From the NCBI GenBank assembly GCA_965224715.1, contig OZ245054.1:906411-970410 (forward strand): DNA of 64,000 bases, given 5' to 3'. The translations under genes were made by a program, and so were the position numbers. The notes below the pieces were generated by a model that saw only the letters and a program-made list of their open reading frames with translations, had not been told where the DNA came from and made no database searches. This DNA comes from Spirochaetota bacterium (GTDB taxonomy: Bacteria > Spirochaetota > UBA12135 > COTS27 > CAXSBA01). Each line of letters opens with the position of its first letter. Position 1 is the first letter of the stretch. This document shows, piece by piece, positions 11,154 to 53,521 of the stretch.

Positions 11154-11157
11154 TTAT

Positions 11158-11229
11158 GTCTCCATCGTCTAGTGGTTAGGACACCAGGTTTTCATCCTGG
11201 CAACCGGGGTTCGATTCCCCGTGGAGATG
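11158..11229 (+). tRNA. tRNA-Glu (anticodon TTC)
   Basis: gtctccatcgtctagtggttaggacaccaggttTTCatcctgg...ggggttcgattcccc. G1-U72 wobble at the acceptor end. Confidence 0.75.
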
Positions 11230-31994: not shown

Positions 31995-32519
31995 TTTATC
32001 TATATGGAGTGTTGGAAGGAATGTAAAAACCTCCTATTTATATTAGGAGAGGTAAGAGAACTTCTGCAGTATAACGACAACTGACAATAAAAGAGCGAAT
32101 CCTGTATCGTTAGCTGCTCGGGCAAGGCTAGAGATCGCACAGACAACCCGCCTAACCGAAACCCTAGTTCTGTCTTTTCAGATAAGAATATAGTATGAAA
32201 CTAGAGTTTTCCAAGCCAGAAAATGTAATAAGCCTTCCAAATTTAATAGGATTACTGTTGTTAATCTTACGTAAATCCATTTTTCCTGTGTGCATATACA
32301 TTTAACGATGTTTTCTTTTCTGTTGTTCCAAAGCGATACATATACAGGACCTCTATAACCAGCATCCGAAGTTGCAAAAATTTTCCAGCTGCCTATTATT
32401 TCTATAAGATTGCCATTCCACCCATGCGTTTGTCTCTGTGGCCGGGGTCCACGTTATTTACATCCTTGCTGTCAAAAATCAACCCGCTACCGTTATTAAA
32501 ATGGCTTGTCAACCTTGCC

Positions 32520-33013
32520 CTAGAATGGTATAGCTAGAGTTAGTGAAATGAGTCTTAGCGTAATCATGGGGGCATTTATCTTTTGAGCGATAAGCACGTT
32601 GATGGAGTTAGTGCTTAGATGACGTTTTAAAGCTCCCTCTGTCATTTCCGTGGTGGTAGGGGCTGGTTTGTTTGTCTCTTTTACAGCGAGAAGATAGTCG
32701 GATATGTTTTTGTTAGCCTTAATGCTGAACAGCACGTAAGAGTCCCGCACATCGGTGTTGGCTCTTTTGGGGATCTCTGTTACTGTGATTTCGGCCTGAC
32801 TACCTGTTTTTGTTTCGTTATCTGCGGTAACGTTACAAGCAATGATTGAGATTGCTAAGAATACAATGACTGAGAACTGTTTGAGAAGAGAAAGATGTTT
32901 TAGATGTAAACTTTTATTTAGAAGATTTGGGGGGAGGGGGGGTGATTTTACTTGAGGGAGCGATTAACTCTGGGGTTTTAGTTTGCTGTAATTTTAGTTT
33001 TGTTTTTAATTTT
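32520..33013 (-). pseudogene. Frameshifted member of the lipoprotein family. Its promoter and first ~60 nt are near-identical to the gene at 37419..38801
   Basis: ATGAAAAAAATTAAAAAC... carries A7 where the paralog has A6, so a stop follows after 13 codons. A second frame change is needed at the C7TC6 tract (32930-32945). Removing one A and one C restores MKKLKTKLKLQQTKTPELIAPSSKITPPPPNLLNKSLHLKHLSLLKQFSVIVFLAISIIAC(NVT...)...AIPF. Confidence 0.5.
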
Positions 33014-33066
33014 TTTCATTAAATGATCCTTTTGATGAATTTTTAAATAATAATAATATTATAAAT

Positions 33067-33095
33067 ATAATAACATACTAACCGTGATTTGTCAA
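33067..33095 (-). promoter_or_regulatory. Near-consensus sigma70 promoter (TTGACA-17-TATTAT) of the lipoprotein-family cassette
   Basis: Minus strand reads ccccaTTGACAaatcacggttagtatgtTATTATattt, with RBS AAAGGA 7 nt before the ATG. Confidence 0.55.
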
Positions 33096-33257: not shown

Positions 33258-34391
33258 TTACAGTTGAAATGACCAGTAAATTGGTTCATTTGATATGACA
33301 GTATCAGGAGTAACTTCAAAACGATTCCGGATATTATTATGAGACAAATCACTGACTCTAGTGGTGATAACTACAGTATAGACAACCCCCTTCTTCCAGA
33401 GTGCAGTAAATTTCCAGCGACTATCATTTTTATCATGAGTAACTGCAACTTTTGTTTTTTCTTGCGGAAGATTTTGGGGATGAATATAAATCCCATCAAC
33501 AATGGAAAAATAATCCATGCTTTCAGAGAAGACCAAAACCAAAGGATCATTCGATGATTTTGGAACAATACTGGACTGAGGTAAGAAGTGAGGGATTTCA
33601 TAGTCCGGAGCTGTTACCTTATAAGTTTTTTGATAATCGCTGGCTAATTTTCTATAAAAAATATCATGGAAACCTTCTTTATTTATTGTTACAGTATATT
33701 CTTCATCTTTTCTGATTGCCGTTTTTCTGATTTTTCCTTTAAGACTAATTCCTCGTTTTACTCTTCCTGGATGAATCATAATCGGCAAATAATTTTGTAT
33801 ATTTTTTCTCGGTGGTAAAAGAAAACTTGTCCATACATTAGATTGTTTAACTCCATCTGTGTTAAGAAGGTTAACATAAAGAAGACTATCTCGTTTTATT
33901 TCTATAGGAGAAGTGAAAAAGGCATAAAAAGTTAAATGATTTTCAGGGATGCTAGAACCCACGGGATAAAATTCTTTTATTGATACTAATGGTTCATCTG
34001 TTGGGATAAAAGCCGGAGTTTGAAATGTTAGGGTGATTTTGTCTCCATTATTGTTGTTTATTCCCTCAGAAGTCCATTCCACCATAAAATTCCCTTGAGG
34101 CATAAGTGGCGATGCTGGTATAAGGCTTAATTCTTCATTAGAATATGAATAGAAAGAATAAACAGGTAGATCATTCTTCTTTCCTTCAACCATTAAATAC
34201 AACCGTAAGATATCTTCCTTTTTTGATTTTTTCTTTTTCAAAAAAGGAACAGAAATCCGAGGAAGCAAAGGATTCTGAGTATCAAGCTTTATAGATTTAA
34301 CTTCTTTGTTGCAAGAAATAAAAACAAATAAAGCAGTGAACAGAAGACAACCATTTTTCATATTACCATATTTTAATTGTCTACTGAGCAC
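33258..34391 (-). CDS. Putative lipoprotein (hypothetical), overlaps the upstream gene by 11 nt
   Basis: MKNGCLLFTALFVFISCNKE signal and lipobox. No family recognised. Confidence 0.45.
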   Translation of the reverse strand: MLSRQLKYGNMKNGCLLFTALFVFISCNKEVKSIKLDTQNPLLPRISVPFLKKKKSKKEDILRLYLMVEGKKNDLPVYSFYSYSNEELSLIPASPLMPQGNFMVEWTSEGINNNNGDKITLTFQTPAFIPTDEPLVSIKEFYPVGSSIPENHLTFYAFFTSPIEIKRDSLLYVNLLNTDGVKQSNVWTSFLLPPRKNIQNYLPIMIHPGRVKRGISLKGKIRKTAIRKDEEYTVTINKEGFHDIFYRKLASDYQKTYKVTAPDYEIPHFLPQSSIVPKSSNDPLVLVFSESMDYFSIVDGIYIHPQNLPQEKTKVAVTHDKNDSRWKFTALWKKGVVYTVVITTRVSDLSHNNIRNRFEVTPDTVISNEPIYWSFQL

Positions 34392-35685
34392 TTACAGCTT
34401 CTAGCCAAACATTATCTTTATTTTTTAAAGCAAATAATAGTTTTTCTTCGGAATAATAAGGAACACCCGAAATCCATTCCTCCCCGACCTTTAAGGTCGT
34501 TCTTTTATATTCACTTTCTGATAAGTCGGGGAACTGCGATGAGAACTGAGGATCTAATATGTCTACATTTTTACCGGACTTTAAATCATCATTATTATAG
34601 CTCCCGTCAATATACTTTGAACCGATTCTTTCAAAATATCTATCTTCATAAGAGGATAATATAAAATAATAAGTATCTTTTTTACCTGAGACTGTAACTT
34701 CATAGTGAAAAGACTTTTTTGGGTTGTTGAAAGCCATATTAAATGTTTGCACGAAAGTAATTGGATCAAAACTAGAACGAATTTCGGAAGTTGGCAATGA
34801 AAATCCCGGTGAGCAAGTATTTACTCCTGTAAGAAAACTTGTTCCGTCAATAATAGTTACAGACATTTTTTCTACAGGAGCGGATGTACTATATGTTGAG
34901 GGATCTCTTGGCCGGGAACCTGACGTAAATCTTGCTTCCCTATAACCCATACTATTAGTTTGTTGATCATTGGTAATAATAACCTCTTCTTTGTTAAAAG
35001 GAGCCTTTATCCATGCTATTCGAGAGCGTAGCTCCCTTCTATTCCCATAACTTACATATAAATAACTTTCTGCAGTATCCCAAGAAAAATCTATAACCTC
35101 ATCATCTCCAGATTGATGGTTTGTCACATTTATTTTTGCGGTTTTTACTGAACTAAGATCTACTGCTTCAATATTAGTTACATTTTCAGAAATAACTACT
35201 TTATATAACTTCCCCGTATCACCCAAAATGTAAACTCTCTTAGTAATAGGGTCTACTTCAATATTTTTCACCCCAGTGCCAGATCCAGATACAGCTTCAA
35301 GTTTATCTTTAAAATCTGTAGAATTTGAAGACCCGAAACTATCTCCTATATAACCGCTATCGATAGTCCCTGCAATTTCCAATTCTATAATAAAAATATT
35401 AGTCCCATGAGTAGATAAAAAACCTAAAGTATTTCCATATTTATCATTAGCCACTTTAAAGATATTAATATTTTCTTTACTTAAGTCTATGAGAGAATTA
35501 TCACTGAAAACGGAGCCATGGCTAGTTGCAGGAGTATTATCATCATTATCATTCTGTTTAAATACAGTACAACTAGTAATAGTAATCAAACAAATAGCTA
35601 TCATGAGTAAATTAATAAGCCTTTTAAACACTTTTATTATCCCTTTGTTTGGGTAATCTTCTTGAGGTGGTTTTATTTTTTTCAT
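34381..35685 (-). CDS. Putative lipoprotein sharing the family promoter and MKKIK leader
   Basis: MKKIKPPQEDYPNKGIIKVFKRLINLLMIAICLITITSC lipobox. The conserved promoter is at 35724..35752. Confidence 0.5.
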   Translation of the reverse strand: MKKIKPPQEDYPNKGIIKVFKRLINLLMIAICLITITSCTVFKQNDNDDNTPATSHGSVFSDNSLIDLSKENINIFKVANDKYGNTLGFLSTHGTNIFIIELEIAGTIDSGYIGDSFGSSNSTDFKDKLEAVSGSGTGVKNIEVDPITKRVYILGDTGKLYKVVISENVTNIEAVDLSSVKTAKINVTNHQSGDDEVIDFSWDTAESYLYVSYGNRRELRSRIAWIKAPFNKEEVIITNDQQTNSMGYREARFTSGSRPRDPSTYSTSAPVEKMSVTIIDGTSFLTGVNTCSPGFSLPTSEIRSSFDPITFVQTFNMAFNNPKKSFHYEVTVSGKKDTYYFILSSYEDRYFERIGSKYIDGSYNNDDLKSGKNVDILDPQFSSQFPDLSESEYKRTTLKVGEEWISGVPYYSEEKLLFALKNKDNVWLEAVSAQ

Positions 35686-35723
35686 TAAATAATCCTTTTG
35701 ATAAATTTTTAAATAATGATATT

Positions 35724-35752
35724 ATAATAACACATTAACCGTGATTTGTCAA
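35724..35752 (-). promoter_or_regulatory. Conserved family promoter copy (TTGACA-17-TATTAT)
   Basis: Minus strand: cccaTTGACAaatcacggttaatgtgtTATTATaat. Confidence 0.55.
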
Positions 35753-35903
35753 TGGGATTTTGACATAATTTTTTCACTGTGATATAAAAATTTTGTAGAT
35801 GCAGCGACGGCAGAATCGGTTTCATCATAACTTTCTTTATGAAAGACTCTTATTATGAAACCGACTTTGTCTTTGCCATATAACTTATCTTGATAAGAGG
35901 AAA

Positions 35904-37178
35904 TTACAGTTTTTGTTCCCAATTGATACCGTCTGAGGATTTCCATACATCATTATAGCGAGAGCTGCCATCAATTCCACCGATGAGGTATAGTTCATTG
36001 TTAAACACGACTACACTGTGAGCTTGTCTTCCGGAAAACTGAGCTTGGTTAGTCACTTCTGTCCAATCGATACCGTCTGAGGATTTCCATACATCGTTTT
36101 TGAAAGAGCCATCATTTCCAACGATGAGGTATAGTTCATTGTTAAACTTGACTACACTGTGATCGTATCTTCCGGTAAACTGAGCGTTACCAGTCACTTC
36201 TGTCCAATCGATACCGTCTGAGGATTTCCATACATCGTTATAGCGAGTGTTTCCGCCCCCAAATCCACCGATGAGGTATAGTTCATTGTTAAACTCTACT
36301 ACACGGTGACTGTTTCTTTTGGGAAACTGAGCGTTACCAGTCACTTCTGTCCAATCGATACCGTCTGAGGATTTCCATACATCGTTTCTGAAAGAGCCTC
36401 TGCTATGCCCACCGATGAGGTATAGTTCATTGTTAAACTCTACTACACTGGGAGTATTTCTTTCGGAAAACTTAGCTTGAGTGGTAGTCACTTCTGTCCA
36501 GGTAGCACCGTCCGATGATTTCCATATATCATTTAGTTGATTGAAGCCACTACTTTCTCCTCCAATGAGATATAGTTCATTGCTAAACTTGACTAAACTG
36601 TGAAGGTATCTTCCGGAAAACTGAGCATTACCAGTAACTTCTGTCCAGGTAGCACCGTCTGAGGATTTCCATACATCGTTTAGTAGATTGTTGCCGGTAT
36701 CTTGTCCTCCGATGAGGTAGAGTTCATCGTTAAGTTTTACTACACTGTGAGAGTATCTTGCGGAAAAATGATTTACTTTTATGGAAACAGTTCCTGTAAC
36801 CGACCCCTTGTATTGGGGATTATTTTCGGTTACGGTTGCGGTTATGGTGTAAGTATTGGAAAAACCCGGAGCATTGGTTGTTACTGTGATGGTGCCGTTT
36901 GTTAGATTCAGGGTAACTCCATTTGGTAAGGGAGGCTCTACACTGTAGCTGTAGTCGCTATTAGTAGTAGCATCAGAGGGAGTTATGTTGGTTAGCTTAG
37001 CTGTCCTGCTGACTTCGGTTCCGTAATTGACTTGGATATTCTGATAGCTGATGCTACCTGTTATTTGTGTTTTGCCATCTGAGGAATCCGTAGAATTCGT
37101 CTCGGTGCTGCATCCTAAAGTTAGTATAGTCAGGATGGCTGTGAGAGCGATTGTTAATGAGATTTTTATTTTTTTCAT
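35904..37178 (-). CDS. Kelch-repeat beta-propeller lipoprotein (N-terminal Ig-like segment plus 6 Kelch-like blades)
   Basis: MKKIKISLTIALTAILTILTLGCS lipobox, then ~47-aa units repeated 6 times: NNELYLIGG...NDVWKSSDG(A/I)(T/D)WTEVT. Confidence 0.6.
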   Translation of the reverse strand: MKKIKISLTIALTAILTILTLGCSTETNSTDSSDGKTQITGSISYQNIQVNYGTEVSRTAKLTNITPSDATTNSDYSYSVEPPLPNGVTLNLTNGTITVTTNAPGFSNTYTITATVTENNPQYKGSVTGTVSIKVNHFSARYSHSVVKLNDELYLIGGQDTGNNLLNDVWKSSDGATWTEVTGNAQFSGRYLHSLVKFSNELYLIGGESSGFNQLNDIWKSSDGATWTEVTTTQAKFSERNTPSVVEFNNELYLIGGHSRGSFRNDVWKSSDGIDWTEVTGNAQFPKRNSHRVVEFNNELYLIGGFGGGNTRYNDVWKSSDGIDWTEVTGNAQFTGRYDHSVVKFNNELYLIVGNDGSFKNDVWKSSDGIDWTEVTNQAQFSGRQAHSVVVFNNELYLIGGIDGSSRYNDVWKSSDGINWEQKL

Positions 37179-37217
37179 TGAATAAATCCTTTTGATAAAT
37201 TTTTAAATAATGATATT

Positions 37218-37246
37218 ATGATAACACATTAACCATGGTTTGTCAA
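37218..37246 (-). promoter_or_regulatory. Conserved family promoter copy (TTGACA-17-TATCAT)
   Basis: Minus strand: ccctTTGACAaaccatggttaatgtgtTATCATaat. Confidence 0.5.
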
Positions 37247-37418: not shown

Positions 37419-38801
37419 TTACAGTTTTTGTTCCCAGTCAATACCGTTTGAGGATTTCCATACATCGTTTAGTAGATTGTTGCCGGCCTCTTGTCCACCG
37501 ATGAGGTATAATTCATTATTAAACACGGTTGCACTGTGACCCCGTCTTGCGGAAAACTGAGCTTGACTAGTAACTTCTGTCCAATCGATACCGTCTGAGG
37601 ATTTCCATACATCATTTAGTCGATTGGTGCCATCAAATCCACCGATGAGGTATAGTTCATTATTAAACTCGACTACACTGTGATAGGATCTTTCGGAAAA
37701 CTTAGCTTGAGTGGTAGTCACTTCTGTCCAGGTAGCACTGTCTGAGGATTTCCATATATCGTTTTTGTAAGGGGTTGCGGATGTTCCGCCCTCATATCCA
37801 CCGAAGAGATATAGTTCATTGTTAAACACGACTACATTGTGACTACTTCTTGCGGAAAACTGAGCTTGATTAGTAACTTCTGTCCAAGTAGCACCGTCCG
37901 GTGATTTCCATACATCGTTTTTGTAAGTGATGCCACTATATCCACCGATGAGGTATAGTTCATTGTTAAACACGACTACATTGTGACTATTTCTTGCGGA
38001 AAACTGAGCTTGATTAGTAACTTCTGTCCAAGTAGCACCGTCCGGTGATTTCCATACATCGTTTAGTTGATTGTTGCCGGTATCTTGTCCTCCGATGAGG
38101 TATAGTTCATTATTAAACTTGGTTACATAAGCCCGTCTTGTGGGAAACTGAACTTGATCAGTAACTTTTGTCCAGGTAGCACCGTCCGGTGATTTCCACA
38201 CATCGTTTAGTAGATTGTCGCCGGCCTCTTGTCCTCCGATGAGGTATAATTCATTATTAAGTTCTACTACACTGTGGCCACCTCTTATAGAAAAATGATT
38301 TACTTTTATGGAAACAGTTCCTGTAACCGACCCCTTGTATTGAGGATCATTTTCGGTTACGGTTGCGGTTATGGTGTAAGTGTTGGAAAAACCCGGAGCA
38401 TTGTTTGCTACTGTGATGGTACCGTCTGATGGATTCAGGGTAACTCCATTTGGTAAGGTGGGCTCTACACTGTAGAGGTAGTCGCTATCGATAGCATTAG
38501 AGGGAGTCATATTGGTCAGCTTAGCAGTACTGCTGTCTGTGTTTCCGTAATCGACCTGGATATTCTGATAGCTGATGCTACCTGTTATTTGTGTTTTGTC
38601 AATTGAAGAGTCTGTTTCGGAGTTGCATCCTAAAGTTAATATAGTCAGGATGACCGTGAGAGTGATTGTCATGAGATATCTGAGCCGTGAGCTTTTGTTT
38701 AGATGGATTGAGGGAGAGGGGGGAGGTATTTTGCTTGAGGGAGCGATTAACTCTGGGGTTTTAGTTTGCTGTAATTTTAGTTTTGTTTTTAATTTTTTCA
38801 T
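37419..38801 (-). CDS. Kelch-repeat beta-propeller lipoprotein, paralog of 35904..37178, with a Pro-rich pre-lipobox leader
   Basis: MKKLKTKLKLQQTKTPELIAPSSKIPPPSPSIHLNKSSRLRYLMTITLTVILTILTLGCNS, then the same Ig-like segment (TYTITATVTENDPQYKGSVTGTVSIKVNHF) and 6 Kelch-like repeats. Confidence 0.6.
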   Translation of the reverse strand: MKKLKTKLKLQQTKTPELIAPSSKIPPPSPSIHLNKSSRLRYLMTITLTVILTILTLGCNSETDSSIDKTQITGSISYQNIQVDYGNTDSSTAKLTNMTPSNAIDSDYLYSVEPTLPNGVTLNPSDGTITVANNAPGFSNTYTITATVTENDPQYKGSVTGTVSIKVNHFSIRGGHSVVELNNELYLIGGQEAGDNLLNDVWKSPDGATWTKVTDQVQFPTRRAYVTKFNNELYLIGGQDTGNNQLNDVWKSPDGATWTEVTNQAQFSARNSHNVVVFNNELYLIGGYSGITYKNDVWKSPDGATWTEVTNQAQFSARSSHNVVVFNNELYLFGGYEGGTSATPYKNDIWKSSDSATWTEVTTTQAKFSERSYHSVVEFNNELYLIGGFDGTNRLNDVWKSSDGIDWTEVTSQAQFSARRGHSATVFNNELYLIGGQEAGNNLLNDVWKSSNGIDWEQKL

Positions 38802-38839
38802 TAAATGATCCTTTTGATGAATTTTTAAATAACGATATT

Positions 38840-38868
38840 ATGATAACATATTAACCGTGATTTGTCAA
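38840..38868 (-). promoter_or_regulatory. Conserved family promoter copy (TTGACA-17-TATCAT)
   Basis: Minus strand: ccacTTGACAaatcacggttaatatgtTATCATaat. Confidence 0.5.
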
Positions 38869-43109: not shown

Positions 43110-44609
43110 TTGATTAAACCGTTAATTGAATCAATCATTACTCTTCAAGAAATATTTATTATGAAAACAATCGGGTTAATGTTCTTATGTGCCCTAGCTT
43201 TATGGCCATTACCCCTTCAGGCTCAAACGGTATTAGATCTTTCTATAGTCGAATATATTGAAAAAGTTCGAGAAAACCATCCTAAAATCAAGATTGAAGA
43301 AATAAATCCTGAAATTAAAAAGTCCATCTATGAAGAACATCCGGTAGTATCAGGATTTGGAGGGGCTTTCACGGCTGGCTATCAACAAAATTTTAATAAC
43401 ACTTCCTTAAAAAACGAAAGTAAATCTTTTAATTTTGGCTGGGCCTATAAACTTCTACAATCAGGAACCTCTTTTGGAATAAATTTTAACAATGTTCGGT
43501 CTCCTAGCTCCACCATGGGAACCGATCTCTGGAATACGACAGCTACTCTTTCCCTCGAGCAACCTTTACTTTTCAATGGATTGCTTGGAGATAATGTCAA
43601 TGCCCATGATATTAAGCGATACGAATATGAAATCAGCCAAGTGAGTTCCGAGTTAACCATGTCCCAAATTATTCTCCAAGCCCTCCTCCTTTATCGAAGA
43701 TATGAGATCACCAAGGAAATCAATAATCTTTCCAAGGAGCTTCTTAAAAGTGCCCGGGAGATTTTTGACTTCAATCGGAAGAGGGTAAAGATTGGAACCG
43801 TCAGTCGTTCCGATATCCTCAACTCAGAAAGTCAAATCATCAAAAACCAAATCGATATTCAGAACTCTGATAACAACCTTATCCAACTTCAAGAATCCAT
43901 CCTTTACAATATGGGTTATGGGGAAGAGAGTAGCAAGAATATCAAATTAAAATTTTCTGACAATCCCAATATTTCTAAATTCCAAAAAGTGAACTTTCAA
44001 GAGGTCTGGAATGTAGCTTCTCGAGAAAGAAAAGAGTTTCAACTTTATTCCTTGCAATTAGCAGCTGCGGAGAATGCTATTAGCTTGGGAAAGAAGGCTG
44101 TATTTCCTCAGCTCAATGCCTTTCTCAACTACAGTTTTCTCGGTCAAGACAGTTCTCTGGGAGAATCTTATAACGATACCTTCAGTGGTTTTTCCTTCGA
44201 CAACACCGACCTTACTGTTGGGGTTAATCTAATCCTCAGTACTGACATCTCTAAATATCGGCTAGCTTCCCAAAGACCCAATCAAAACAAGGAGTTAGCG
44301 GAAAGGTCATTGATTGATTTTCAAAACAATCTTCGAAACGATCTACGGGTTAAGGTGAGAAATTTCAATAATGCCTATGATGTTTATAAAAAAAATCAGA
44401 AGGTAGAGGCTTTAACCAGTGAACGTTATTCCATCTCCAGAAAAGAATATTTTATCGGAAAACTTGATTATCCTCGTCTCCTCCAAGTGGAACAGGAGTT
44501 AAAGCAGGCCACTATCAACTATCTTAACAGTAAGATTGCCTATTATCTGGCGGAATTAGAACTGGAAAACTCTCAAGGAATTGTTCTAAAAAAGTACGGC
44601 ATCGAATAA
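43110..44609 (+). CDS. TolC-family outer membrane efflux protein; likely start at 43161 (MKTIGLMFLCALALWPLPLQAQ)
   Basis: Signal peptide and two helical/beta repeat halves typical of OEP family proteins. Positioned immediately upstream of an RND pump. Confidence 0.65.
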   Translation: MIKPLIESIITLQEIFIMKTIGLMFLCALALWPLPLQAQTVLDLSIVEYIEKVRENHPKIKIEEINPEIKKSIYEEHPVVSGFGGAFTAGYQQNFNNTSLKNESKSFNFGWAYKLLQSGTSFGINFNNVRSPSSTMGTDLWNTTATLSLEQPLLFNGLLGDNVNAHDIKRYEYEISQVSSELTMSQIILQALLLYRRYEITKEINNLSKELLKSAREIFDFNRKRVKIGTVSRSDILNSESQIIKNQIDIQNSDNNLIQLQESILYNMGYGEESSKNIKLKFSDNPNISKFQKVNFQEVWNVASRERKEFQLYSLQLAAAENAISLGKKAVFPQLNAFLNYSFLGQDSSLGESYNDTFSGFSFDNTDLTVGVNLILSTDISKYRLASQRPNQNKELAERSLIDFQNNLRNDLRVKVRNFNNAYDVYKKNQKVEALTSERYSISRKEYFIGKLDYPRLLQVEQELKQATINYLNSKIAYYLAELELENSQGIVLKKYGIE

Positions 44610-44632: not shown

Positions 44633-47600
44633 ATGATTGAATTTTTCATTAGACAACATAAGATGATGAATCTGGTTTTGATCGGAATCATCGTTATCGG
44701 GGCGTATTATTTCGTAATCGGACAAAAAGAAGGTTTCCCTAATATCGGCTTGGATCAAGTTTATATCAGTACCTCCTATCCGGGAGTGTCAGCCAAAGAT
44801 ATAGATACCCTTATTACTTCCAAGATTGAAGATGCCATTGAATCTGTAGATGGCATTAAAGATATAAAATCTACTTCTTCACAAGGACAATCCACCATTA
44901 TTGTTTCTATCGATACTGTGAACAGTGGTGTGGATTTGGATACGGTAGCTAGTAAAATTCGTGATAAGATCGATCTTATTAAGAAAGACCTTCCCGCAAA
45001 TTTGGATTCCGATCCAGTGGTTCAAACTATCTCTTTTGCCGAAGTTATGCCCATCATCCAAGTTTTCATAGCCGGCGATCTTGATTTTAATGAATTGAAA
45101 AAGATAGCCGATCAATTCAGTACTCGGATGGGCAATGTTTCCGGGGTTAGTAAAACCGAAAAAGTCAATTATCCCAAAACTCAGGTATGGGTCTCTATCG
45201 ATCCACAAAAACTGGAGAAATACGAAATCGATATAAGTGAAGTGGGCAATGCGGTTAGAGCTGCCAATCTCAATATGCCCAGCGGAACCATCAAAGATAA
45301 TAATGAAGAGATCATTATTAAGACCTGGAATCCTCTCCAAAATGTTTCAGACATTGAAAGCATCATTATCCGTGGTAATGATAACTTTCAATCGATTCGT
45401 ATTAAGGGTTTAGCACGAACTGAAGTAACCTCGGAAACGCTTAGAGAAATTATTGAAAGTGACGGGAAAGCTGGAATAGGGGTTAGCGTTTTCAAAAGTT
45501 TGAATGGAGATGTGATTGATGTTGCCGATGCTACCAAAGATTTGATTAAGGAATTTCAAGAACTATATCCAAACCTTACCATCTTCCATATTCAAGATAT
45601 TTCTTTTTATGTGAAAAGACGGCTCAATGTTTTGGGTAATAATGCTACTATTGGGCTTCTCTTGGTTTTTCTCTGTCTCATCATCTTTTTTGAATTCCGA
45701 GTCACTTTTTGGACCACATTGGGTATCCCGGTATCTTTATGTTTTGCCCTTATTGCCTGTTATCAATTGGGGATCACCCTTAACCTTATGAGTATGTTTG
45801 GTTTTATTATTGTTCTTGGGATGTTGGTTGATGATGCTATTATCGTCTCGGAAAATATCTATCAAAAATACGAGAAGGGGATGCCCTTGATGGAGGCTGC
45901 TGTCAGCGGTGCTCAGGAGATGTTAATTCCGATTCTCGCTATTGTGGCCACCACCATGGCCTCTTTCCTGCCCTTGATGACCCTTCCTGATATTTTTGGA
46001 AAAGTTTTAGGAATTATTCCCCAGGTTGTCGTTTTAGCGATGATCGCCTCTTTTCTGGAGTCCCTCCTCATCCTTCCCGGACATATCGCTCATATGAGAG
46101 ATCGAAACATCGGTCGTAAAGAACATCAAGGCGAACTCCAGAAACAATTTATCGAGTCCCCCTATAATATAAGCAATGAGACAGTGCCGGACTTTTCCAA
46201 TGTAGCTGCTCTTTCAGTTCATGGAAAGTTGGGGCAAAAACAAAAAAAGCCTCCCCAAGAAAAAAGACAATGGTTCAATAAACTACGTAATTTTTATATC
46301 AACCTGATTACACGACTCACCTTGAGACCGGTTCTCAGCGCTACTTTTATTCTGTTGTTGTCCATTGCGATCCTTTTGGGTCTTGGTAGTCAACTTAGGT
46401 TCGTTTTCTTTCCCGGTGAGGCTGAGGATATCATTCTCAATATCAAATTGGATAAGAAAGCACCCATTGAAAAAACCCAAGCCGCATTACGGAAATTGGA
46501 AAGACAATTACGTGTCCAATTAGGTAATGATGTACGAGAGTATTTTTCCACAGCTGGGTCAACCCAAGAAATTGACCAAGCTAATAAATTAACGAGGAGC
46601 TATGTGGGTAATGTTTATATGAATATCTACCCTAGTGAAGAACGGAAATACAGTGTTGGGGAGATCACTAAAATTATGGAAGATACCGCGGCAACCGTTC
46701 CGGAAGTGAAAGAAGCCTATGTTGTTGCCTTCGCAGGTGGTCCACCCGCAGGAAACCCGGTGGAAGTAGAGATGTTCTTTGACAATATCGAGTCTATGGG
46801 TAAAGCTAAACTCATGGCAGATAAAATGAAAGAATTTATCTCGGGTATCCCTAATACCACTTCAGAAACAGTGAGTTATGAAGAGGGTAAAGAAGAAATT
46901 ATCCTCACTCCTAATATTGATCGTGCTATAGTCTATGGGATAAATCTAGATAAAATCGGTACTATCGTAGGCTCTTCTTTTCAAGACTTCCCAGTTACCA
47001 CGATTAATGATTTTACCGGAGTGGATGGAGAGGTGGAAGTGGTGGTTAAATTAGATGAAGAGAAGGTAACTCAGTCCACTGTTACCAACCTCATGGTCAA
47101 GAGTTTGTTCGGGAAGAATTTAGGGCTTGATAATTTTGTTACCGCAAATACTATTGTGGGTGAAGGCCGAATCACTAAGGAAAATGGCCGCTATACATTG
47201 AAGGTAGCCTCCCAATTAGAAGATGTCGAAGCTAAAGAATATACTGGACAGAAGATCAATCAAGAAATCAAGAAAAAAATCCCGGAATGGGAAAAAGAAT
47301 TTCCGGAAGCAGATTTTCTTTTAGGTGGAGAACAAGAAGAACAACAGAAACTCATGTTTGGAGGAATTCGTGCTTTCCTTCTCTCACTTTTCGGAGTACT
47401 CTTAGTGTTAGTAACAATTTTCAGGAGTTACCTCCAACCCTTCATTATCATGAGTGTTCTGCCATTTATCACTGTAGGGGCGACGATCGGTCTTTTTATC
47501 AATGATGTTCCCGTTGGTCTTATGCCCCTCTTGGGGATGGTGGCTCTCACCGGAGTGGTGGTCAACGACTCCATCGTTATGGTCAATCTTATCAATAAAA

Positions 47601-47878
47601 AACGTCTTCATGATCACCACCGACCTCTCCGAGAAATTGTGATTGAATCTGCCGGGCAACGGCTTCGAGCTATTCTTATGACCACCATCACCACTATCGT
47701 AGGGCTTATTCCTATCGCTTATGGAATTGGGGGAGAAGAGCCCTTCATTGCTCCCATGGCCATTACTTTTCTTTGGGGAATGGTCTTCTCGTCATTGATG
47801 ATCCTTCTCCTCATTCCCAACTTCTATTTGATCATTGATAAGATCAGGCATTTTCCCTCCCGCTTTCGTAAATCTTAA
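44633..47878 (+). CDS. RND-superfamily efflux permease (AcrB/HAE1-like, 1081 aa)
   Basis: 12-TM, two-large-loop architecture. GMLVDDAIIVSENI matches the AcrB motif; GMVALTGVVVNDSIVMVN is the second pseudo-repeat. Confidence 0.8.
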   Translation: MIEFFIRQHKMMNLVLIGIIVIGAYYFVIGQKEGFPNIGLDQVYISTSYPGVSAKDIDTLITSKIEDAIESVDGIKDIKSTSSQGQSTIIVSIDTVNSGVDLDTVASKIRDKIDLIKKDLPANLDSDPVVQTISFAEVMPIIQVFIAGDLDFNELKKIADQFSTRMGNVSGVSKTEKVNYPKTQVWVSIDPQKLEKYEIDISEVGNAVRAANLNMPSGTIKDNNEEIIIKTWNPLQNVSDIESIIIRGNDNFQSIRIKGLARTEVTSETLREIIESDGKAGIGVSVFKSLNGDVIDVADATKDLIKEFQELYPNLTIFHIQDISFYVKRRLNVLGNNATIGLLLVFLCLIIFFEFRVTFWTTLGIPVSLCFALIACYQLGITLNLMSMFGFIIVLGMLVDDAIIVSENIYQKYEKGMPLMEAAVSGAQEMLIPILAIVATTMASFLPLMTLPDIFGKVLGIIPQVVVLAMIASFLESLLILPGHIAHMRDRNIGRKEHQGELQKQFIESPYNISNETVPDFSNVAALSVHGKLGQKQKKPPQEKRQWFNKLRNFYINLITRLTLRPVLSATFILLLSIAILLGLGSQLRFVFFPGEAEDIILNIKLDKKAPIEKTQAALRKLERQLRVQLGNDVREYFSTAGSTQEIDQANKLTRSYVGNVYMNIYPSEERKYSVGEITKIMEDTAATVPEVKEAYVVAFAGGPPAGNPVEVEMFFDNIESMGKAKLMADKMKEFISGIPNTTSETVSYEEGKEEIILTPNIDRAIVYGINLDKIGTIVGSSFQDFPVTTINDFTGVDGEVEVVVKLDEEKVTQSTVTNLMVKSLFGKNLGLDNFVTANTIVGEGRITKENGRYTLKVASQLEDVEAKEYTGQKINQEIKKKIPEWEKEFPEADFLLGGEQEEQQKLMFGGIRAFLLSLFGVLLVLVTIFRSYLQPFIIMSVLPFITVGATIGLFINDVPVGLMPLLGMVALTGVVVNDSIVMVNLINKKRLHDHHRPLREIVIESAGQRLRAILMTTITTIVGLIPIAYGIGGEEPFIAPMAITFLWGMVFSSLMILLLIPNFYLIIDKIRHFPSRFRKS

Positions 47879-48797: not shown

Positions 48798-51700
48798 ATG
48801 AAAATTCTTGGAATTGATATGGGAATCACTTCTATTGGATGGGGCCTTATTCACTTTAATCCTCGGGAAAGAGAAGAAACTCGAATTATCGATGCCGGGG
48901 TAAGGATTTTTACCAAGGCTGAGCATCCAAAAGATGGATCTTCTCTGGCACTTCCTCGCAGAGAAGCCAGGGGAAGAAGACGAATATTAGTTAGAAAAAG
49001 GGAAAGGATGCAGAAAATCAAGGAGCTATTTATCGAGTATTTTGGTCTTGACCGTGAAAGTCTTTTTGAGATAGGGGATTACGGTTCTGGAACGATTTTT
49101 AAGGAGAAGAAGAAGAGTGATGTTTGGGAACTTAGAGATGCAGCCCTTGAAAGAAAATTAAGTCTAAAGGAGATGGCTAGAGTCCTGACCCATATCGCCA
49201 AACGCAGAGGTTATCATTCCAACAGTAAATCTGATGATTCAGAAAAAGACAAAGGTAAGGTTATTGAAGCGATTAAGGCTAATCAAGAAAATTTAAAAAA
49301 ATTAGGCTATTCTACACCGGGACAAATGATGTATCGGGAATCTCAAAAAAGTAGTTCCAAATCCGGTGATTATTTTTTACGAATTCGAAATACTACCAAT
49401 GATTATCGCCATGTAGTAACTCGGGAAATGCTCCGCGATGAAGTGGAAAAAATTTTTTCTGTTCAGAAAAAATTTTCCAAAAAATATTCTTCAGAGTTAA
49501 AGAACCGGTATTTGGATATAGCCTTTTATCAAAGACCACTCAAATCCAGCGAAGATATGGTAGGACCTTGTACTTTTGAGTCTGATGAAAAAAGGGCTCC
49601 TAAATACAGTTATAGTGCTGAACGATTTGTTTTGCTTGGCAAGATTATCAATACCATGATGATCGATGCCGGTGAAAATAATCGGTATAAAGAAAAGCGT
49701 CTCCTTGACTTCTGTCCGATGGATAAAATTCTTGAAGTCTTTCATGACCAGAAAGAGGTGAAATACCAAACTTTGAGGAAAAATTTAGAGATAGCAGATC
49801 ATCTCAAATTTAAAGATGTCAACTATAACGAGGATCCGGAGAATAAAAAGCTTCCCAAGGTAGATTCTTTTTTTAAAAAAGAGACCTGGTTAGAGAAAGA
49901 TCAAAAAGAACTCTTGACTTATAATGATAAGGAGAATCATTCACACTTTCATAAATGGATCCGAAAATATACGGACATTAGAAGGGCTTTGAAACTTGAT
50001 AAGAATTTTGAATTTATCTCTTTGAAAAGTGATTATAAGAAGCACCCTGAAAGCAAGGAATTCTACTCGCTAAAGGGGTATCATATTTTCAAAAAAGCAT
50101 TATCTTCAGAAGAATTTGAACAGTTTTTTCAAAATCTTTCGGTTTATAATGAGGTAGCTTATATCTTAACCGTAGAGCAAGGAATTAAAGAAATCCGAGA
50201 GCGTTTAGAGTCTATTCCTGGCATTTCCTCCTATATCGATAAGCTGGTCACCATTACGGGCTTTAAGGGATTTAATCATTTGTCCATTAAGGCGATGAAC
50301 AAACTTACCCCTCATCTTAGGGCTGGGAAACGATATGATGAGGCTGCTCGGGAGGTGTATGGACATCACTCGGTTAAAAAGGGAAATCAGGCTGAACTCC
50401 TGAGAATCTTGAATCGAGAAGAGAATTATCAACTTACCAACCCGGTGGTGAAACGGGCCTTCGCTCAATTTCGCAAGGTTGTTAATGCAATAGTCCGAAA
50501 GCATGGTCAGTTTGATAGCCTTCATATTGAACTAGCCCGCGAGCTAAAGCATAGTTACAAGCAACGGCAAGAAATCATACGGGGGCAAAATGAATTTAAA
50601 GGTAACAAGGATGCGGCTAAGGAAAAGTTTATAGAACTCTGTCGCAGAGAACCGGCTGCGAGTGAACTTCTAAAATTTCGTTTGTGGGAGGAACAAGAAG
50701 GGAAATCAGTTTATAGCGGTAAGCCTATCTCTATTAACGAATTGGCAAAAAACGATAAGGCTTTCGAAATTGATCATATTCTTCCTTATAGTCGAACTTT
50801 CGATAATACCCTCAATAACAAAGTTTTGGTGTTAGCAGAAGAGAATCAACATAAGAAAAACCGAACTCCCTTTGAATGGTTGGGAAAGAAAAATGAAGAC
50901 GATCCCTCCTGGCTGGAATTCAAAAGTCGATTATTCAGTTTTAAGAATTTGGGAAAAGCTAAGATTAATAAACTTTTCAATACCACCCTGTCTCAAAAAC
51001 ACGGGGAAGAATTCGATGAAGACGATCCGGAAAGTAATTTTTTCATCAATCGCAATCTCAACGATACTCAGTTCATGGCTAAGTTTATTAAAAATTTTGT
51101 GGAACAGAACCTTAAATTTGCCGATAACCCGGATGTCAAGCAAAAGGTCAAAGTGAGGAATGGGATGGTAACTTCTCATCTTGCCTATCTTTGGGGAATA
51201 GGTCGGGTGATCCAGGAAATCCTTCCTACTGAAAAAGAAGATCGAGATGGAAAAGATCCGACCAAGAAGATTCGAGATAATCACCTCCACCATGCCCTTG
51301 ATGCCCTGGTGATTGCCGCTACCACTCAAAGCGAAGTGCAGCGGATGTCCACTTATTCTGCCCGTTTTGAAGATTATCAGTTCAAAAGTAAGGAGGAGAA
51401 GGAGAAAGTTAAAAAACTGAGAACCTCCACGCCCTTCAATGACGAGGAACTGAAGCGGAAACTCTCGAATATTTTTCCTTCCTATGCTCCCCGTCGTAAG
51501 GTGACCGGAGCCGCCCATGAAGAAACCCTTTACAGTGGAAAAACTTATCAGTCAAAAAACAAATCCAAATTGGTCGGAGCTAGCCTTAAGTACCCGGTAA
51601 AACTCAACCACGGAAAGACCTTGGCTAAAAAAAGTTCCATGCCTCGTATCGATCTCTTCCGTCATGTGGAAAACAAAAAATATTTCATCGTCCCCATCTA

Positions 51701-52097
51701 TGTAGCTGACTTTGTCAAAAAACAACTGCCCAGTCATGCGATTATTGGCGGAAAAGATAAGGAAGGAAACCCCAAACCCTGGTTAGAGATGGATGATAGC
51801 TATGAGTTCATCACTTCCATCTATAAGAACGATCTCATCGAAGTGAAGACAAAGAAGGAAACAGTAAGAGGCTACTTTGATAGCGCTGACAGTAGTACCG
51901 GTACTATCTCTTTAAAATCTCCTCAAACCGGTCATCCTTTTAGGAAAGGTATGGGAATTCAAGGAGCTTTACAAGTTCGTAAATTCGAGGTCTCTCCTCT
52001 TGGTGAAATCCATGAGGTTTCCCTCCCTCAAGATCGGGTGGGAACCCTCCATGAGTTGAGAAGGATCAAGAAAGAAAAAGCAATGGATAAAAACTAA
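48798..52097 (+). CDS. cas9: Cas9 (type II-C size class, 1099 aa)
   Basis: RuvC-I MKILGIDMGITSIGWG. Arg-rich bridge helix RREARGRRRILVRKRER. HNH EIDHILPYSRTFDNTLNNKVLV...NRTPFEW. RuvC-III HHALDALVIAATT. RBS aaaggag lies 6 nt upstream. Confidence 0.95.
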   Translation: MKILGIDMGITSIGWGLIHFNPREREETRIIDAGVRIFTKAEHPKDGSSLALPRREARGRRRILVRKRERMQKIKELFIEYFGLDRESLFEIGDYGSGTIFKEKKKSDVWELRDAALERKLSLKEMARVLTHIAKRRGYHSNSKSDDSEKDKGKVIEAIKANQENLKKLGYSTPGQMMYRESQKSSSKSGDYFLRIRNTTNDYRHVVTREMLRDEVEKIFSVQKKFSKKYSSELKNRYLDIAFYQRPLKSSEDMVGPCTFESDEKRAPKYSYSAERFVLLGKIINTMMIDAGENNRYKEKRLLDFCPMDKILEVFHDQKEVKYQTLRKNLEIADHLKFKDVNYNEDPENKKLPKVDSFFKKETWLEKDQKELLTYNDKENHSHFHKWIRKYTDIRRALKLDKNFEFISLKSDYKKHPESKEFYSLKGYHIFKKALSSEEFEQFFQNLSVYNEVAYILTVEQGIKEIRERLESIPGISSYIDKLVTITGFKGFNHLSIKAMNKLTPHLRAGKRYDEAAREVYGHHSVKKGNQAELLRILNREENYQLTNPVVKRAFAQFRKVVNAIVRKHGQFDSLHIELARELKHSYKQRQEIIRGQNEFKGNKDAAKEKFIELCRREPAASELLKFRLWEEQEGKSVYSGKPISINELAKNDKAFEIDHILPYSRTFDNTLNNKVLVLAEENQHKKNRTPFEWLGKKNEDDPSWLEFKSRLFSFKNLGKAKINKLFNTTLSQKHGEEFDEDDPESNFFINRNLNDTQFMAKFIKNFVEQNLKFADNPDVKQKVKVRNGMVTSHLAYLWGIGRVIQEILPTEKEDRDGKDPTKKIRDNHLHHALDALVIAATTQSEVQRMSTYSARFEDYQFKSKEEKEKVKKLRTSTPFNDEELKRKLSNIFPSYAPRRKVTGAAHEETLYSGKTYQSKNKSKLVGASLKYPVKLNHGKTLAKKSSMPRIDLFRHVENKKYFIVPIYVADFVKKQLPSHAIIGGKDKEGNPKPWLEMDDSYEFITSIYKNDLIEVKTKKETVRGYFDSADSSTGTISLKSPQTGHPFRKGMGIQGALQVRKFEVSPLGEIHEVSLPQDRVGTLHELRRIKKEKAMDKN

Positions 52098-52165: not shown

Positions 52166-53077
52166 TTGATTATGGCTTGGCGATCTGTTTCTATCACCCA
52201 TCCCGCTCATCTTTCGGTGTCTTCGGGTCGTCTCAAGATCGCCCAGGAAGAAACCCATTTCCTCCCTCTCGATGATCTTAATGCTATCATCTTGAGTCAT
52301 CCCCGGATATCTCTTACCGCTCCCCTCCTGGGACGGTTGGCAGATCACAATATTGCGGTGTTTAGTACCGATGAACGGCATCTCCCTAATGGGGTTTTTT
52401 ACTCCTTTCAGGGTCATAGTCGGCAGACCAAGATGATCAAGGAGCAGATCGGTTGGTCATTACCTTTTAAAAAAAGGATGCAGCAGAAAATCATAATCAA
52501 CAAAATCAGAAATCAGGGAGAGGTTTTAAATTACCTCTATCCCGAGACTCGTCCGGGAGAAAAGCTGTTTCCTTTAATCAAGGATGTTGATTCCGGTGAT
52601 CGCCGCAATCGAGAGTCGCAGGCTGCCAGTCAATATTTTCGAATCTTATTTCATGCCTTTAACCGTCGAGCAGACAACCTCCACAATGCGGCTCTCAATT
52701 ACGGCTATTCCTTAGTCAGGGGATTTACCGCCCGGGCAGTTGTAGCCCATGGTTTTATTCCCTGTTTGGGACTTTTTCATGATAGTGAGCTTAACTCGTT
52801 TAATTTAGCCGATGATCTCATGGAGCCTTACCGTCCCCTCGTGGATGAGAGAATATTCCAATTACTGGGAAAAGATACCCGAAAAGTATCCGACAGTGAA
52901 CTTAGCCCGGAATTAAAAAAATCTATAGCGGAGATTATTTTCACTCCCTGTCGATTGCGGGGGGAGGAATTACAGCTTCATCACAGCCTGGATGTTCTCG
53001 CTCGAAGTCTTAGCAGTGCCTCCCGGCATAATGACTACAAACGTTTTTTAGAAGTGGAGTTGATTTTATCTTCATGA
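52166..53077 (+). CDS. cas1: Cas1 (type II). TTG start in the ORF track; alternative ATG at 52172
   Basis: NAALNYGYSLVRGFTARAVVAHGFIPCLGLFHDSELNSFNLADDLMEPYRPLVD matches the type II Cas1 core. 4-nt overlap with cas2. Confidence 0.9.
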   Translation: MIMAWRSVSITHPAHLSVSSGRLKIAQEETHFLPLDDLNAIILSHPRISLTAPLLGRLADHNIAVFSTDERHLPNGVFYSFQGHSRQTKMIKEQIGWSLPFKKRMQQKIIINKIRNQGEVLNYLYPETRPGEKLFPLIKDVDSGDRRNRESQAASQYFRILFHAFNRRADNLHNAALNYGYSLVRGFTARAVVAHGFIPCLGLFHDSELNSFNLADDLMEPYRPLVDERIFQLLGKDTRKVSDSELSPELKKSIAEIIFTPCRLRGEELQLHHSLDVLARSLSSASRHNDYKRFLEVELILSS

Positions 53078-53400: not shown

Positions 53401-53521
53401 AAAATTCAGAAAAAATTTGACTCAAGTCACAGTTTTAGCCCCTCCTCAATGTATTTTTTTGATCAAAAAAACCTTGATTTCCTAAGTTTTTCCATAGAAA
53501 ATCAGGGTTTTTTCGAGACGT

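What the first reader, a model, noticed from the sequence alone, without database searches (positions are those of the whole stretch)
32900..33013. Family member silenced only by homopolymer lengths (A7 at the start codon, C7TC6 in the leader): candidate slipped-strand phase variation
The copy at 32520..33013 differs from its intact paralog by one extra A immediately after the ATG (ATGAAAAAAATT versus ATGAAAAAATT) and needs one fewer C in the poly-C tract. With those two changes it encodes a complete signal peptide and lipoprotein (...QFSVIVFLAISIIAC...). Both lesions are in simple repeats and both are +1. This is the signature of contingency loci, although homopolymer miscalls in the assembly are the alternative. 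The intact paralog (38690..38730) carries the same C7 tract in-frame, and a G16 tract occurs at 2959.
Basis: seen in the sequence. Interest (0 to 1): 0.55.

Follow-up and report, generated by a model that had tools for sequence, protein, structure and literature searches.

The report
Dead lipoprotein gene with relic switch
This is a decayed, irreparably broken copy of a spirochaete-type surface-lipoprotein gene; its run of C's is the worn-down remnant of a slippery on/off tract that still looks active in related genomes, so this copy cannot be switched back on.

Summary
The sequence facts are mostly right. On the minus strand there is an ATG at 33019..33017 followed by A7, where the paralog has A6, and C7-T-C6 lies at 32942..32929. 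Removing one A and one C gives a leader, signal peptide and lipobox (..AISIIAC). The claim "silenced only by homopolymer lengths" is wrong. The repaired ORF stops after 165 aa, while intact homologues are 335-450 aa. The rest of the gene lies downstream in other frames. It has about five further frameshifts outside long repeats (~32557, 32510, 32449, 32345, 32293) and a ~93-codon internal deletion (~32415), and it runs to the natural stop at 32166..32164. So this copy is a dead pseudogene, not a reversible switch. A promoter, leader and poly-C cassette precedes several kinds of lipoprotein gene. In related spirochaete-like metagenome contigs the same tract is an uninterrupted C11-C21. There, full-length genes are in frame at C19 and out of frame at C20 or C21 through tract length alone. 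In one 2.1-Mb genome, 9 of 17 paralogs are called from inside the signal peptide. The family therefore probably undergoes leader-peptide phase variation, as Neisseria opa and pilC do. In this window the tracts are short and interrupted.

The parts
33067..33095 (-). Sigma-70-like promoter of the pseudogene: TTGACA at 33095..33090, a 17-nt spacer, and TG-extended TATTAT at 33072..33067. It is one of four near-identical promoter cassettes in the tandem array.
   Evidence: scores it 11/12, level with the sites at 35752, 37246 and 38868 as the best sites in 7.3 kb. One search finds the 17-mer TTGACAAATCACGGTTA four times, against 0.27 expected.
33017..33031 (-). Shine-Dalgarno AAGGA (33031..33027) and start codon ATG (33019..33017).
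   Evidence: The 27-nt stretch AAAATTCATCAAAAGGATCATTTAATG is identical to the one before the intact gene at 38801.
33010..33016 (-). A7 run directly after the ATG (lesion 1). The paralog and all related leaders have A6 or shorter. As it stands, translation gives MKKIKNKTKITAN and then a stop.
   Evidence: A7/T7 runs are common here: 68 runs of exactly 7 in the window.
32943..33019 (-). Leader cassette coding region, an N-terminal extension that reads MKKLKTKLKLQQTKTPELIAPSSKI.. once A7 is corrected to A6. It is about 99% identical to the leader of the intact gene at 38801.
   Evidence: The leader is translated in frame in full-length homologues.
32929..32942 (-). C7-T-C6 tract (lesion 2). This is the poly-proline-coding poly-C tract of the leader, at a frame-breaking length. 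It is homologous to the uninterrupted C11-C21 tracts in related loci.
32835..32882 (-). Signal-peptide hydrophobic core and lipobox, KQFSVIVFLAISIIAC, with the Cys codon at 32837..32835.
   Evidence: It aligns with the signal peptides of P0014, P0021 and P0022 (..KQFTVIVF..ILIIAC). No lipoprotein predictor was run.
32559..32834 (-). N-terminal domain of the mature protein, still in one frame (EITVTEIPKRANTDVRDSYVLF...INVLIAQKINAPMI).
   Evidence: tblastn against P0001: 73% identity, E = 9e-40.
32520..32522 (-). Out-of-frame TAG that ends the 'repaired' 165-aa ORF. It is not the gene's natural stop.
32164..32558 (-). Degraded C-terminal remainder of the gene. It has frameshifts near 32557, 32510, 32449, 32345 and 32293, and a ~93-codon internal deletion with a frame change near 32415. 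The natural end ...SYLKRQN is followed by the stop at 32166..32164.
   Evidence: P0034, 151/211 identity, 93 residues unmatched. Consistent maps come from P0001, P0002, P0014, the L001 ORF and the L005 homologue. One search shows only short runs (4-5 nt at most) within 18 nt of the lesions.
32030..32050 (-). Possible intrinsic terminator of the former gene: a stem-loop followed by TTTTT, about 115 nt past the natural stop.
   Evidence: This is a consensus match only; 5 were found against 4.8 expected, so the evidence is weak.
37419..38868 (-). Intact reference paralog. It has the same promoter (38868..38840), ATG at 38801, A6, the same leader, and an interrupted tract CCTCCCCCCTCTCCCTC (38726..38710) that is read in frame as PPPSPS. 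It encodes a 460-aa Kelch-repeat lipoprotein.
33258..37246 (-). The rest of the tandem array. It contains two further genes that have the promoter/5'UTR cassette but no poly-C leader insert: ATG 37178 (a 424-aa Kelch lipoprotein) and ATG 35685 (434 aa, no family match). There is also a downstream overlapping 377-aa Big_5 protein (34391..33258).

Best explanation
Window 33095..32164 (minus strand) is an eroded pseudogene. It is the last member of a tandem array of surface-lipoprotein genes that each carry the same strong promoter and 5'UTR cassette.

It keeps an intact promoter, SD and ATG. It also keeps a leader cassette, which is an N-terminal extension placed before the lipoprotein signal peptide and which contains a poly-C (poly-proline) tract. 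Signal peptidase II would remove this leader, so the tract can change length without altering the mature protein.

The copy is disabled by an extra A (A6 to A7), by a frame-breaking tract length (C7TC6), by about five more frameshifts outside long repeats, and by a ~93-codon internal deletion. No change in tract length can restore it. At most it is transcribed and yields a 13-aa peptide. These points are shown.

The tract itself is a relic. In related genomes the homologous leader has an uninterrupted C11-C21 tract, and tract length alone decides whether otherwise intact 340-450-aa lipoprotein ORFs are in frame. From this I infer that the family is regulated by slipped-strand translational phase variation in the cleaved leader peptide. 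In this genome the tracts have been shortened and interrupted by C-to-T changes. The intact copy is effectively locked ON (longest run C6), and this copy has died.
For: Lesion map. P0034, the closest intact homologue, aligns at 151/211 identity through to the natural C-terminus at 32167. The alignment needs 5 frameshifts and a 93-residue gap. Independent homologues give the same breakpoints. Shuffled-query controls give observed scores of 65, 48, 79 and 74 against null maxima of 45, 39, 51 and 43. The lesion contexts have no run longer than 5 nt.

ORF lengths. The repaired ORF is only 165 aa, whereas leader-bearing homologues are 340-489 aa.

Assembly quality. 80% of the window is covered by ORFs of at least 150 aa, and these contain 188 A/T runs of 6 or more and 49 G/C runs of 5 or more without disruption.

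Family level. The same promoter and leader are found in ENA contigs L002-L005, with tracts of C11 (2), C19 (7), C20 (2) and C21 (1). At C19 there are four full-length ORFs of 355-450 aa that start at the leader ATG. At C20 (L004:4470) and C21 (L005:2032), full length (434 and 340 aa) is restored by tract change alone.

A library-wide profile search finds the leader in frame on Kelch, He_PIG-type and DVRDSY-type bodies, with 2 to 7 prolines. In one genome with a 2.11-Mb contig, 6 paralogs carry the full leader and 9 are called from 'MIIACN..', inside the signal peptide.

A more distant homologue, in L001, has (TTCC)18 at the equivalent position.
Against: No read-level data are available, so tract heterogeneity has not been shown in any genome.

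The contigs with C19-C21 are labelled 1x-3x and show several other short-homopolymer frameshifts. Their exact tract lengths and ON/OFF states may therefore include sequencing error.

The OFF state of the nine 'MIIACN' paralogs is inferred from gene-call start sites. The DNA of that genome could not be fetched.

The exact positions of the weaker distal frameshifts (32345, 32293) depend on alignment parameters. Lipoprotein processing is inferred from the sequence only.
Confidence: 0.85

Rival explanations
1. One reading: this copy is a live contingency locus, switched OFF only by the A7 and C7 tract lengths and able to return to ON by slipped-strand mispairing.
For: Both 5' lesions lie in homopolymers. 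Correcting them opens a leader, signal peptide and lipobox ORF. The promoter, SD and ATG are intact. The family tract is long and variable elsewhere.
Against: The corrected ORF is 165 aa and ends at an out-of-frame stop. About five further frameshifts and a ~93-codon deletion break the body. Two independent tracts would also have to change together. A7 runs are commonplace here, and a C7 tract interrupted by a T is at best marginally mutable.
Confidence: 0.03
2. Assembly artefact: the A7 and C7 lengths, and possibly the other frameshifts, are homopolymer or indel miscalls, and the real gene is intact.
For: Long-read assemblies do miscall homopolymers. The related low-coverage contigs clearly contain such errors.
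Against: In this window, 237 homopolymer runs sit inside unbroken long ORFs, including 27 A/T runs of 8 or more. The body lesions are not in long homopolymers. One of them is a ~276-nt deletion, which is not a miscall type.
Confidence: 0.04
3. Silent archive copy: the pseudogene is retained as a donor or recipient for gene conversion among family members. This would be cassette-type antigenic variation rather than an expressed gene.
For: The 5' cassette is about 99% identical to that of the intact gene over ~100 nt, while the body is heavily decayed. That pattern suggests recent homogenisation of the cassette. The family looks modular: the same leader sits on three body types, and the N-terminal half of this copy resembles P0014/P0001 while its C-terminal half resembles P0034.
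Against: Unlike classical silent cassettes, it has its own full promoter and start. There is only one such remnant in 64 kb. No conversion tracts were demonstrated. Frameshifted, deleted donor sequence would be of little use.
Confidence: 0.06
4. Expression is rescued without any DNA change, through transcriptional slippage or ribosomal frameshifting on the A7 and poly-C runs.
For: Slippage on long homopolymers is established in other bacteria (my own knowledge). The C19-C21 tracts in relatives would be prone to it.
Against: Two separate corrections would be needed on short tracts, and the body is still broken downstream.
Confidence: 0.02

Closest known systems
Neisseria opa genes (CTCTT coding repeats in the leader peptide)
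   Same: Both are multigene families of surface proteins in which each copy has its own promoter. Both switch translation ON and OFF through a simple repeat inside the cleaved leader-peptide coding region, so that some copies are in frame and others are not within one genome (PMC3960869; family pattern here). The (TTCC)18 in L001 is an even closer formal analogue.
   Different: The repeat here is a homopolymer (poly-C, coding poly-Pro) and not a pentamer. The products are lipoproteins (Kelch, He_PIG-type and an uncharacterised family), not beta-barrel OMPs. There is no sequence homology. The window copy itself is dead.
Neisseria pilC poly-G tract in the signal-peptide coding region (my own knowledge: Jonsson et al. 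1991)
   Same: A G/C homopolymer within the signal-peptide coding region sets the frame of an otherwise intact surface-protein gene.
   Different: Different phylum and different protein. That system has one or two genes, whereas here there are dozens.
Treponema pallidum poly-G tracts (tprE/G/J, tprL, tp0126)
   Same: Same phylum, assuming the spirochaete assignment holds. G/C homopolymers of variable length are associated with surface-protein genes and slipped-strand phase variation (PMC7864442).
   Different: The characterised T. pallidum tracts lie in promoters and modulate transcription. Here the tract lies after the start codon and acts on the reading frame. The proteins are not homologous.
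Mycoplasma variable lipoproteins (for example the Vaa poly-A tract in the 5' coding region, and the Vlp promoter poly-A tract; my own knowledge)
   Same: Families of surface lipoproteins with conserved 5' and signal-peptide regions are switched by homopolymer length.
   Different: Those systems use A-tracts, have different cassette architecture, and belong to an unrelated lineage.
Ordinary decaying pseudogene in a host-associated bacterium
   Same: There are multiple independent frameshifts and an internal deletion, and the homopolymers were hit first or among the first lesions. The promoter is retained.
   Different: The 5' end carries a recognisable relic of a switch tract and is kept nearly identical to that of a live paralog.

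Membership tests
Simple-sequence contingency locus (reversible translational phase variation) | A hypermutable repeat (typically a G/C homopolymer of about 8 or more) inside the 5' coding region | tested here: inconclusive
   The tract is C7-T-C6 together with A7, which is at or below the usual mutability threshold. The homologous tracts elsewhere are C11-C21.
Simple-sequence contingency locus (reversible translational phase variation) | A change in repeat length alone switches an otherwise intact ORF between ON and OFF | tested here: not met
   After both tract corrections the ORF is 165 aa. About five more frameshifts and a ~93-codon deletion remain.
Simple-sequence contingency locus (reversible translational phase variation) | Tract-length heterogeneity within a population or among reads | not testable with these tools
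   No reads are available for the window or for any related genome.
Leader-peptide repeat-switched surface-protein family (opa/pilC-like logic), applied to the gene family and not to this copy | The same repeat position in many paralogs, with intact bodies and a mixture of in-frame and out-of-frame tracts | tested here: met
   There are 12 cassettes in L002-L005. Four are full length at C19, and two are restored by tract change alone at C20 and C21. In one genome there are 6 leader-bearing and 9 signal-peptide-truncated gene calls. Caveats: the contigs have low coverage, and the OFF calls are inferred from start sites.
Leader-peptide repeat-switched surface-protein family (opa/pilC-like logic) | The repeat lies in a part of the protein that is removed on maturation | tested here: inconclusive
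   The tract lies between the ATG and the hydrophobic core and lipobox Cys in every ON example. Cleavage by signal peptidase II is inferred, not tested.
Pseudogene | Clear homology to intact genes over the full length, with several independent disabling lesions | tested here: met
   In total there are 2 lesions in the leader, about 5 frameshifts and 1 large deletion in the body.
Bacterial (spirochaete-type) lipoprotein | An N-terminal signal peptide ending in a lipobox with an invariant Cys | tested here: inconclusive
   ..VIVFLAISIIAC in this copy and ..ILTILTLGC in the paralogs. The Cys is conserved across homologues. No LipoP or SpLip predictor was available.
Kelch-repeat paralog of the genes at 38801 and 37178 | A Kelch beta-propeller body | tested here: not met
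   Pfam finds Kelch in the 38801 and 37178 proteins and nothing in the repaired 33019 product. Its homologues form a separate family with no Pfam or NCBIfam match.

The most novel reading that the evidence does not exclude
The promoter, leader and poly(C) module is a portable switch cassette. It has been placed in front of at least three unrelated lipoprotein body types (Kelch propellers, He_PIG/Ig-like proteins, and the uncharacterised 'EIPKR..DVRDSY' family). It is present in a dozen or more copies per genome in a clade of marine, invertebrate-associated spirochaete-like bacteria. This would be an undescribed large contingency-gene repertoire in a non-pathogen. The window would then show its evolutionary end states: one copy locked ON by tract interruption and one dead copy.
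Probability: 0.5. Interest if true: 0.55.

Novelty: new member of a known kind. Interest (0 to 1): 0.35.

Why it matters
The flagged locus itself is an ordinary pseudogene and should not be listed as a phase-variable gene.

The wider point is that its leader identifies a lipoprotein family that appears not to have been described. Members share a promoter, a leader and a poly-C module, and the arrangement has the hallmarks of opa/pilC-type translational switching. It occurs in spirochaete-like bacteria, and some relatives are labelled as coming from lucinid-clam gill metagenomes.

If reads confirm tract heterogeneity, this would extend large contingency repertoires from pathogens to marine symbionts. 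It would also give clear examples of how such switches decay, either by tract interruption (locked ON) or by gene death.

There is a practical consequence for annotation. In these genomes, gene calls that start at 'MIIACN..' are probably leader-OFF genes and not true starts.

Tried and rejected
- Exact-product look-ups of three window proteins found nothing, so the source genome is not in the collection. The same was true for P0001, P0013 and P0014, so the DNA of the 2.1-Mb relative could not be inspected.
- The single genome-contig scan returned one distant locus, L001.
- Two metagenome-contig scans with leader patterns returned nothing.
- Pfam and NCBIfam give no family for the pseudogene's body or its intact homologues.
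- AlphaFold2 on P0014 with 22 homologues gave pLDDT 48.9, which is too poor for a fold search, so none was run.
- Rfam finds no RNA family at the locus.
- I tested whether an alternative start codon downstream of the tract could express the lipoprotein frame. There is no ATG, GTG or TTG between the upstream TAA and the GTG at 32750, which lies beyond the lipobox.
- I considered whether the G16 at 2959 sits in the same leader context. Its flanks are unrelated, and it lies in non-coding debris.
- I considered the 35685 and 37178 genes as carriers of the tract. They share only the promoter and 5'UTR.

Full report
**1. What is in the sequence**

The feature lies on the minus strand. A consensus sigma-70-type promoter precedes it: TTGACA at 33095..33090, a 17-nt spacer, and TG-extended TATTAT ending at 33067. 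An AAGGA Shine-Dalgarno follows at 33031..33027, then ATG at 33019..33017. The ATG is followed by A7 (33016..33010), and C7-T-C6 lies 75 nt further on (32942..32929).

A tract of this kind is not expected by chance. There were 0 matches in 100 shuffles, and the only other match in 64 kb is the G16 at 2959..2974. As it stands, the ORF is 13 aa. Correcting A7 to A6 gives 34 aa. Correcting A7 to A6 and removing one C from either run gives 165 aa, which contains KQFSVIVFLAISIIAC, a signal-peptide core with a lipobox Cys at 32837..32835.

- The coordinates are a few bases off.
- The intact paralog has no C7. It has an interrupted CCTCCCCCCTCTCCCTC (38726..38710, longest run C6).
- The two genes are similar only in the 5' cassette.

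**2. The neighbourhood**

Four minus-strand genes in tandem carry the same promoter and 5'UTR cassette. Their starts are at 38801, 37178, 35685 and 33019. The four promoters are the four best promoter matches in 7.3 kb. The genes at 38801 and 37178 encode Kelch-repeat lipoproteins. The gene at 35685 encodes a 434-aa protein with no family match, and it is followed by a Big_5 protein.

Only the 38801 and 33019 copies contain a ~110-nt insert between MKK(L)K and the signal-peptide core. That insert holds the C-rich tract. From 33047 to 32950 the two copies are about 99% identical, differing by the extra A and one T/C. Identity then drops to about 60% and disappears.

**3. The body is not intact**

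The repaired product has no Pfam match. Its homologues are proteins of 288-450 aa. They continue for about 200 residues beyond the point where the repaired ORF stops at TAG 32522..32520.

Frameshift-aware alignments show that this missing part is present downstream in other frames. I ran them with P0001, P0002, an ORF from locus L001, an intact 355-aa homologue from L005, and P0014. Scores were well above shuffled-query controls: 65, 48 and 79 against null maxima of 45, 39 and 51, and 74 against 43.

The closest intact relative, P0034, gives the clearest lesion map. It aligns at 151/211 identity and runs through to the natural C-terminus ...SYLKRQN, with the stop at 32166..32164. The alignment requires frameshifts near 32557, 32510, 32449, 32345 and 32293, and a 93-residue gap with a frame change near 32415. 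None of these sites is in a long homopolymer; the longest run within 18 nt is 5 nt. The locus is a multi-lesion pseudogene.

**4. Not an assembly artefact**

ORFs of at least 150 aa cover 80% of the window. They contain 188 A/T runs of 6 or more (27 of them 8 or more) and 49 G/C runs of 5 or more, with no disruption. A ~276-nt deletion is also not a type of homopolymer miscall.

**5. What the tract is**

A locus from an ENA metagenome assembly (L002) that encodes a homologue showed the same leader with C11. A profile of the leader peptide then recovered more loci from the same assembly, L003-L005.

In total there are 12 cassettes. All share the TTGACAAA(T/C)C promoter, a GGAGG SD, an ATGAAAAAA or ATGGAAAAA start, the ..QELITP..KIT motif, and an uninterrupted poly-C tract. 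Tract lengths are C11 (2 cassettes), C19 (7), C20 (2) and C21 (1). Each tract is followed by ..THL(S/N)K..RLKHL.., a hydrophobic core and a lipobox.

The frame outcomes are as follows:
- At C19, four genes read from the leader ATG into full-length lipoproteins of 355-450 aa. One of these is a homologue of the window pseudogene.
- At C20 (L004, ATG 4470), the body is intact, and changing the tract length alone restores a 434-aa ORF.
- At C21 (L005, ATG 2032), the body is also intact, and changing the tract length alone restores a 340-aa ORF.

A search of 1.84 billion representative proteins found only 13 proteins with this leader. They have it in frame on Kelch, He_PIG-type and 'DVRDSY' bodies, with 2 to 7 prolines.

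A genome with a 2.11-Mb contig holds at least 17 paralogs. Six start with the full leader. Nine are called from 'MIIACN', 'MITACN' or 'MLAIVSC', a few residues before the lipobox Cys. That is what a gene caller would produce if the leader were out of frame. A more distant homologue in a Spirochaetaceae MAG (L001) has (TTCC)18 at the equivalent position.

**6. Mechanism**

Shown:
- The leader is translated as part of full-length ORFs.
- The tract lies upstream of the lipobox.
- Tract length differs among paralogs and sets the frame.

Inferred:
- Slipped-strand mispairing changes tract length at high frequency.
- Signal peptidase II removes the leader, so tract length does not affect the mature lipoprotein.
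- This yields stochastic ON/OFF expression of individual family members.

In the window, the tracts are short and interrupted by T. The intact 38801 gene is effectively fixed ON. The 33019 copy acquired frame-breaking A7 and C-tract lengths and then, or earlier, decayed throughout its body. The near-identity of its 5' cassette to the live paralog suggests cassette homogenisation by recombination. That remains an inference.

**7. Caveats**

- The C19-C21 contigs are labelled 1x-3x and contain other short-homopolymer frameshifts, so individual ON/OFF calls may be wrong.
- The OFF states in the 2.1-Mb genome are inferred from start-site calls. Its DNA was not retrievable.
- No read-level heterogeneity is available.
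- The taxonomic assignment rests on source labels of homologues: a Spirochaetaceae MAG and Spirochaeta sp. LUC14. The lucinid-gill context comes from PMC6461927. The window's own genome was not identified.

**8. Comparison with known systems**

In logic, the family matches Neisseria opa, which has CTCTT repeats in the leader-peptide coding region (PMC3960869), and pilC, which has poly-G in the signal-peptide region (my own knowledge). It differs from the characterised Treponema pallidum poly-G tracts, which sit in promoters (PMC7864442). It is not homologous to any of these.

**9. Verdict**

Novelty: a new member of a known kind of system. Interest is modest, at 0.35.

Noticed in passing
window 48798-55405: A type II CRISPR-Cas locus. 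It includes a 1099-aa Cas9-like protein with HNH_4 and RuvC_III domains (48798..52097), Cas1 (52166..53077), and an array of about 27 units with a 66-nt period (53521..55405; repeat approximately TATTATAACACAGAAAAGGTGGTAAGTGGGCTATAAC).
   Followed up: partly
window 2959-2974: A G16 tract, the longest homopolymer in the window. It lies in a 690-nt stretch with no long ORF (2686..3375), among short minus-strand ORFs. One of these (2810..2917) weakly resembles the C-terminus of aldehyde dehydrogenases (Pfam E = 0.038, below threshold). Its flanks are unrelated to the lipoprotein leader, and its role is unknown.
   Followed up: partly
L001 9692-9763, with 9200-9540 and 10988-11057: In a Spirochaetaceae MAG (OZ245363.1), the homologous lipoprotein gene has (TTCC)18 between the SD and the signal peptide. 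With 17 or 20 units the signal peptide would be joined in frame. However, there is no canonical start codon (ATA where ATG is expected), and there is a further frameshift after the lipobox. The gene is flanked by clusters of C7-11/G7-11 palindromes.
   Followed up: partly
L004 1163-6234; L005 1978-11257: Tandem arrays of 4-5 lipoprotein genes (He_PIG-type and DVRDSY-type), each with its own promoter, leader and C19-C21 cassette. The contigs are labelled 1x-3x coverage and show extra short-homopolymer frameshifts.
   Followed up: yes
P0013, a protein from another genome and a homologue of window 37419-38801: The middle of its leader reads TKNRSQSLFPIKY where the window gene has TKTPELIAPSSKI. 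It then returns to PPPPPSIHLNK. This looks like a pair of compensating frameshifts on either side of the leader spacer, with the second at the poly-C tract. If so, the leader's amino-acid sequence is only loosely constrained.
   Followed up: no
window 33044-33073: The pseudogene's promoter-to-SD spacer contains a 9-nt insertion (TATATTTAT, part of a TAAATATTA-like triplication) that is absent from the other three cassettes.
   Followed up: no
window 35919-36771 and 37443-38276: The two Kelch lipoprotein genes contain 144-147-nt internal tandem repeats, about 6 copies at 78% match. These correspond to the propeller blades.
   Followed up: no
window 43110-47878 and 11081-11229: An RND efflux pair: an OEP outer-membrane factor (43110..44609) and an AcrB-family pump (44633..47878). 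There are also two adjacent tRNA genes at 11081..11153 and 11158..11229.
   Followed up: no
P0039 and P0046 (protein database labels): One family member is labelled as coming from a 'Candidatus Thiodiazotropha sp.' MAG on a 1.7-kb contig, and another as 'Spirochaeta sp. LUC14_002_19_P3'. The first is probably a mis-binned spirochaete contig from a lucinid gill metagenome (context in PMC6461927).
   Followed up: no
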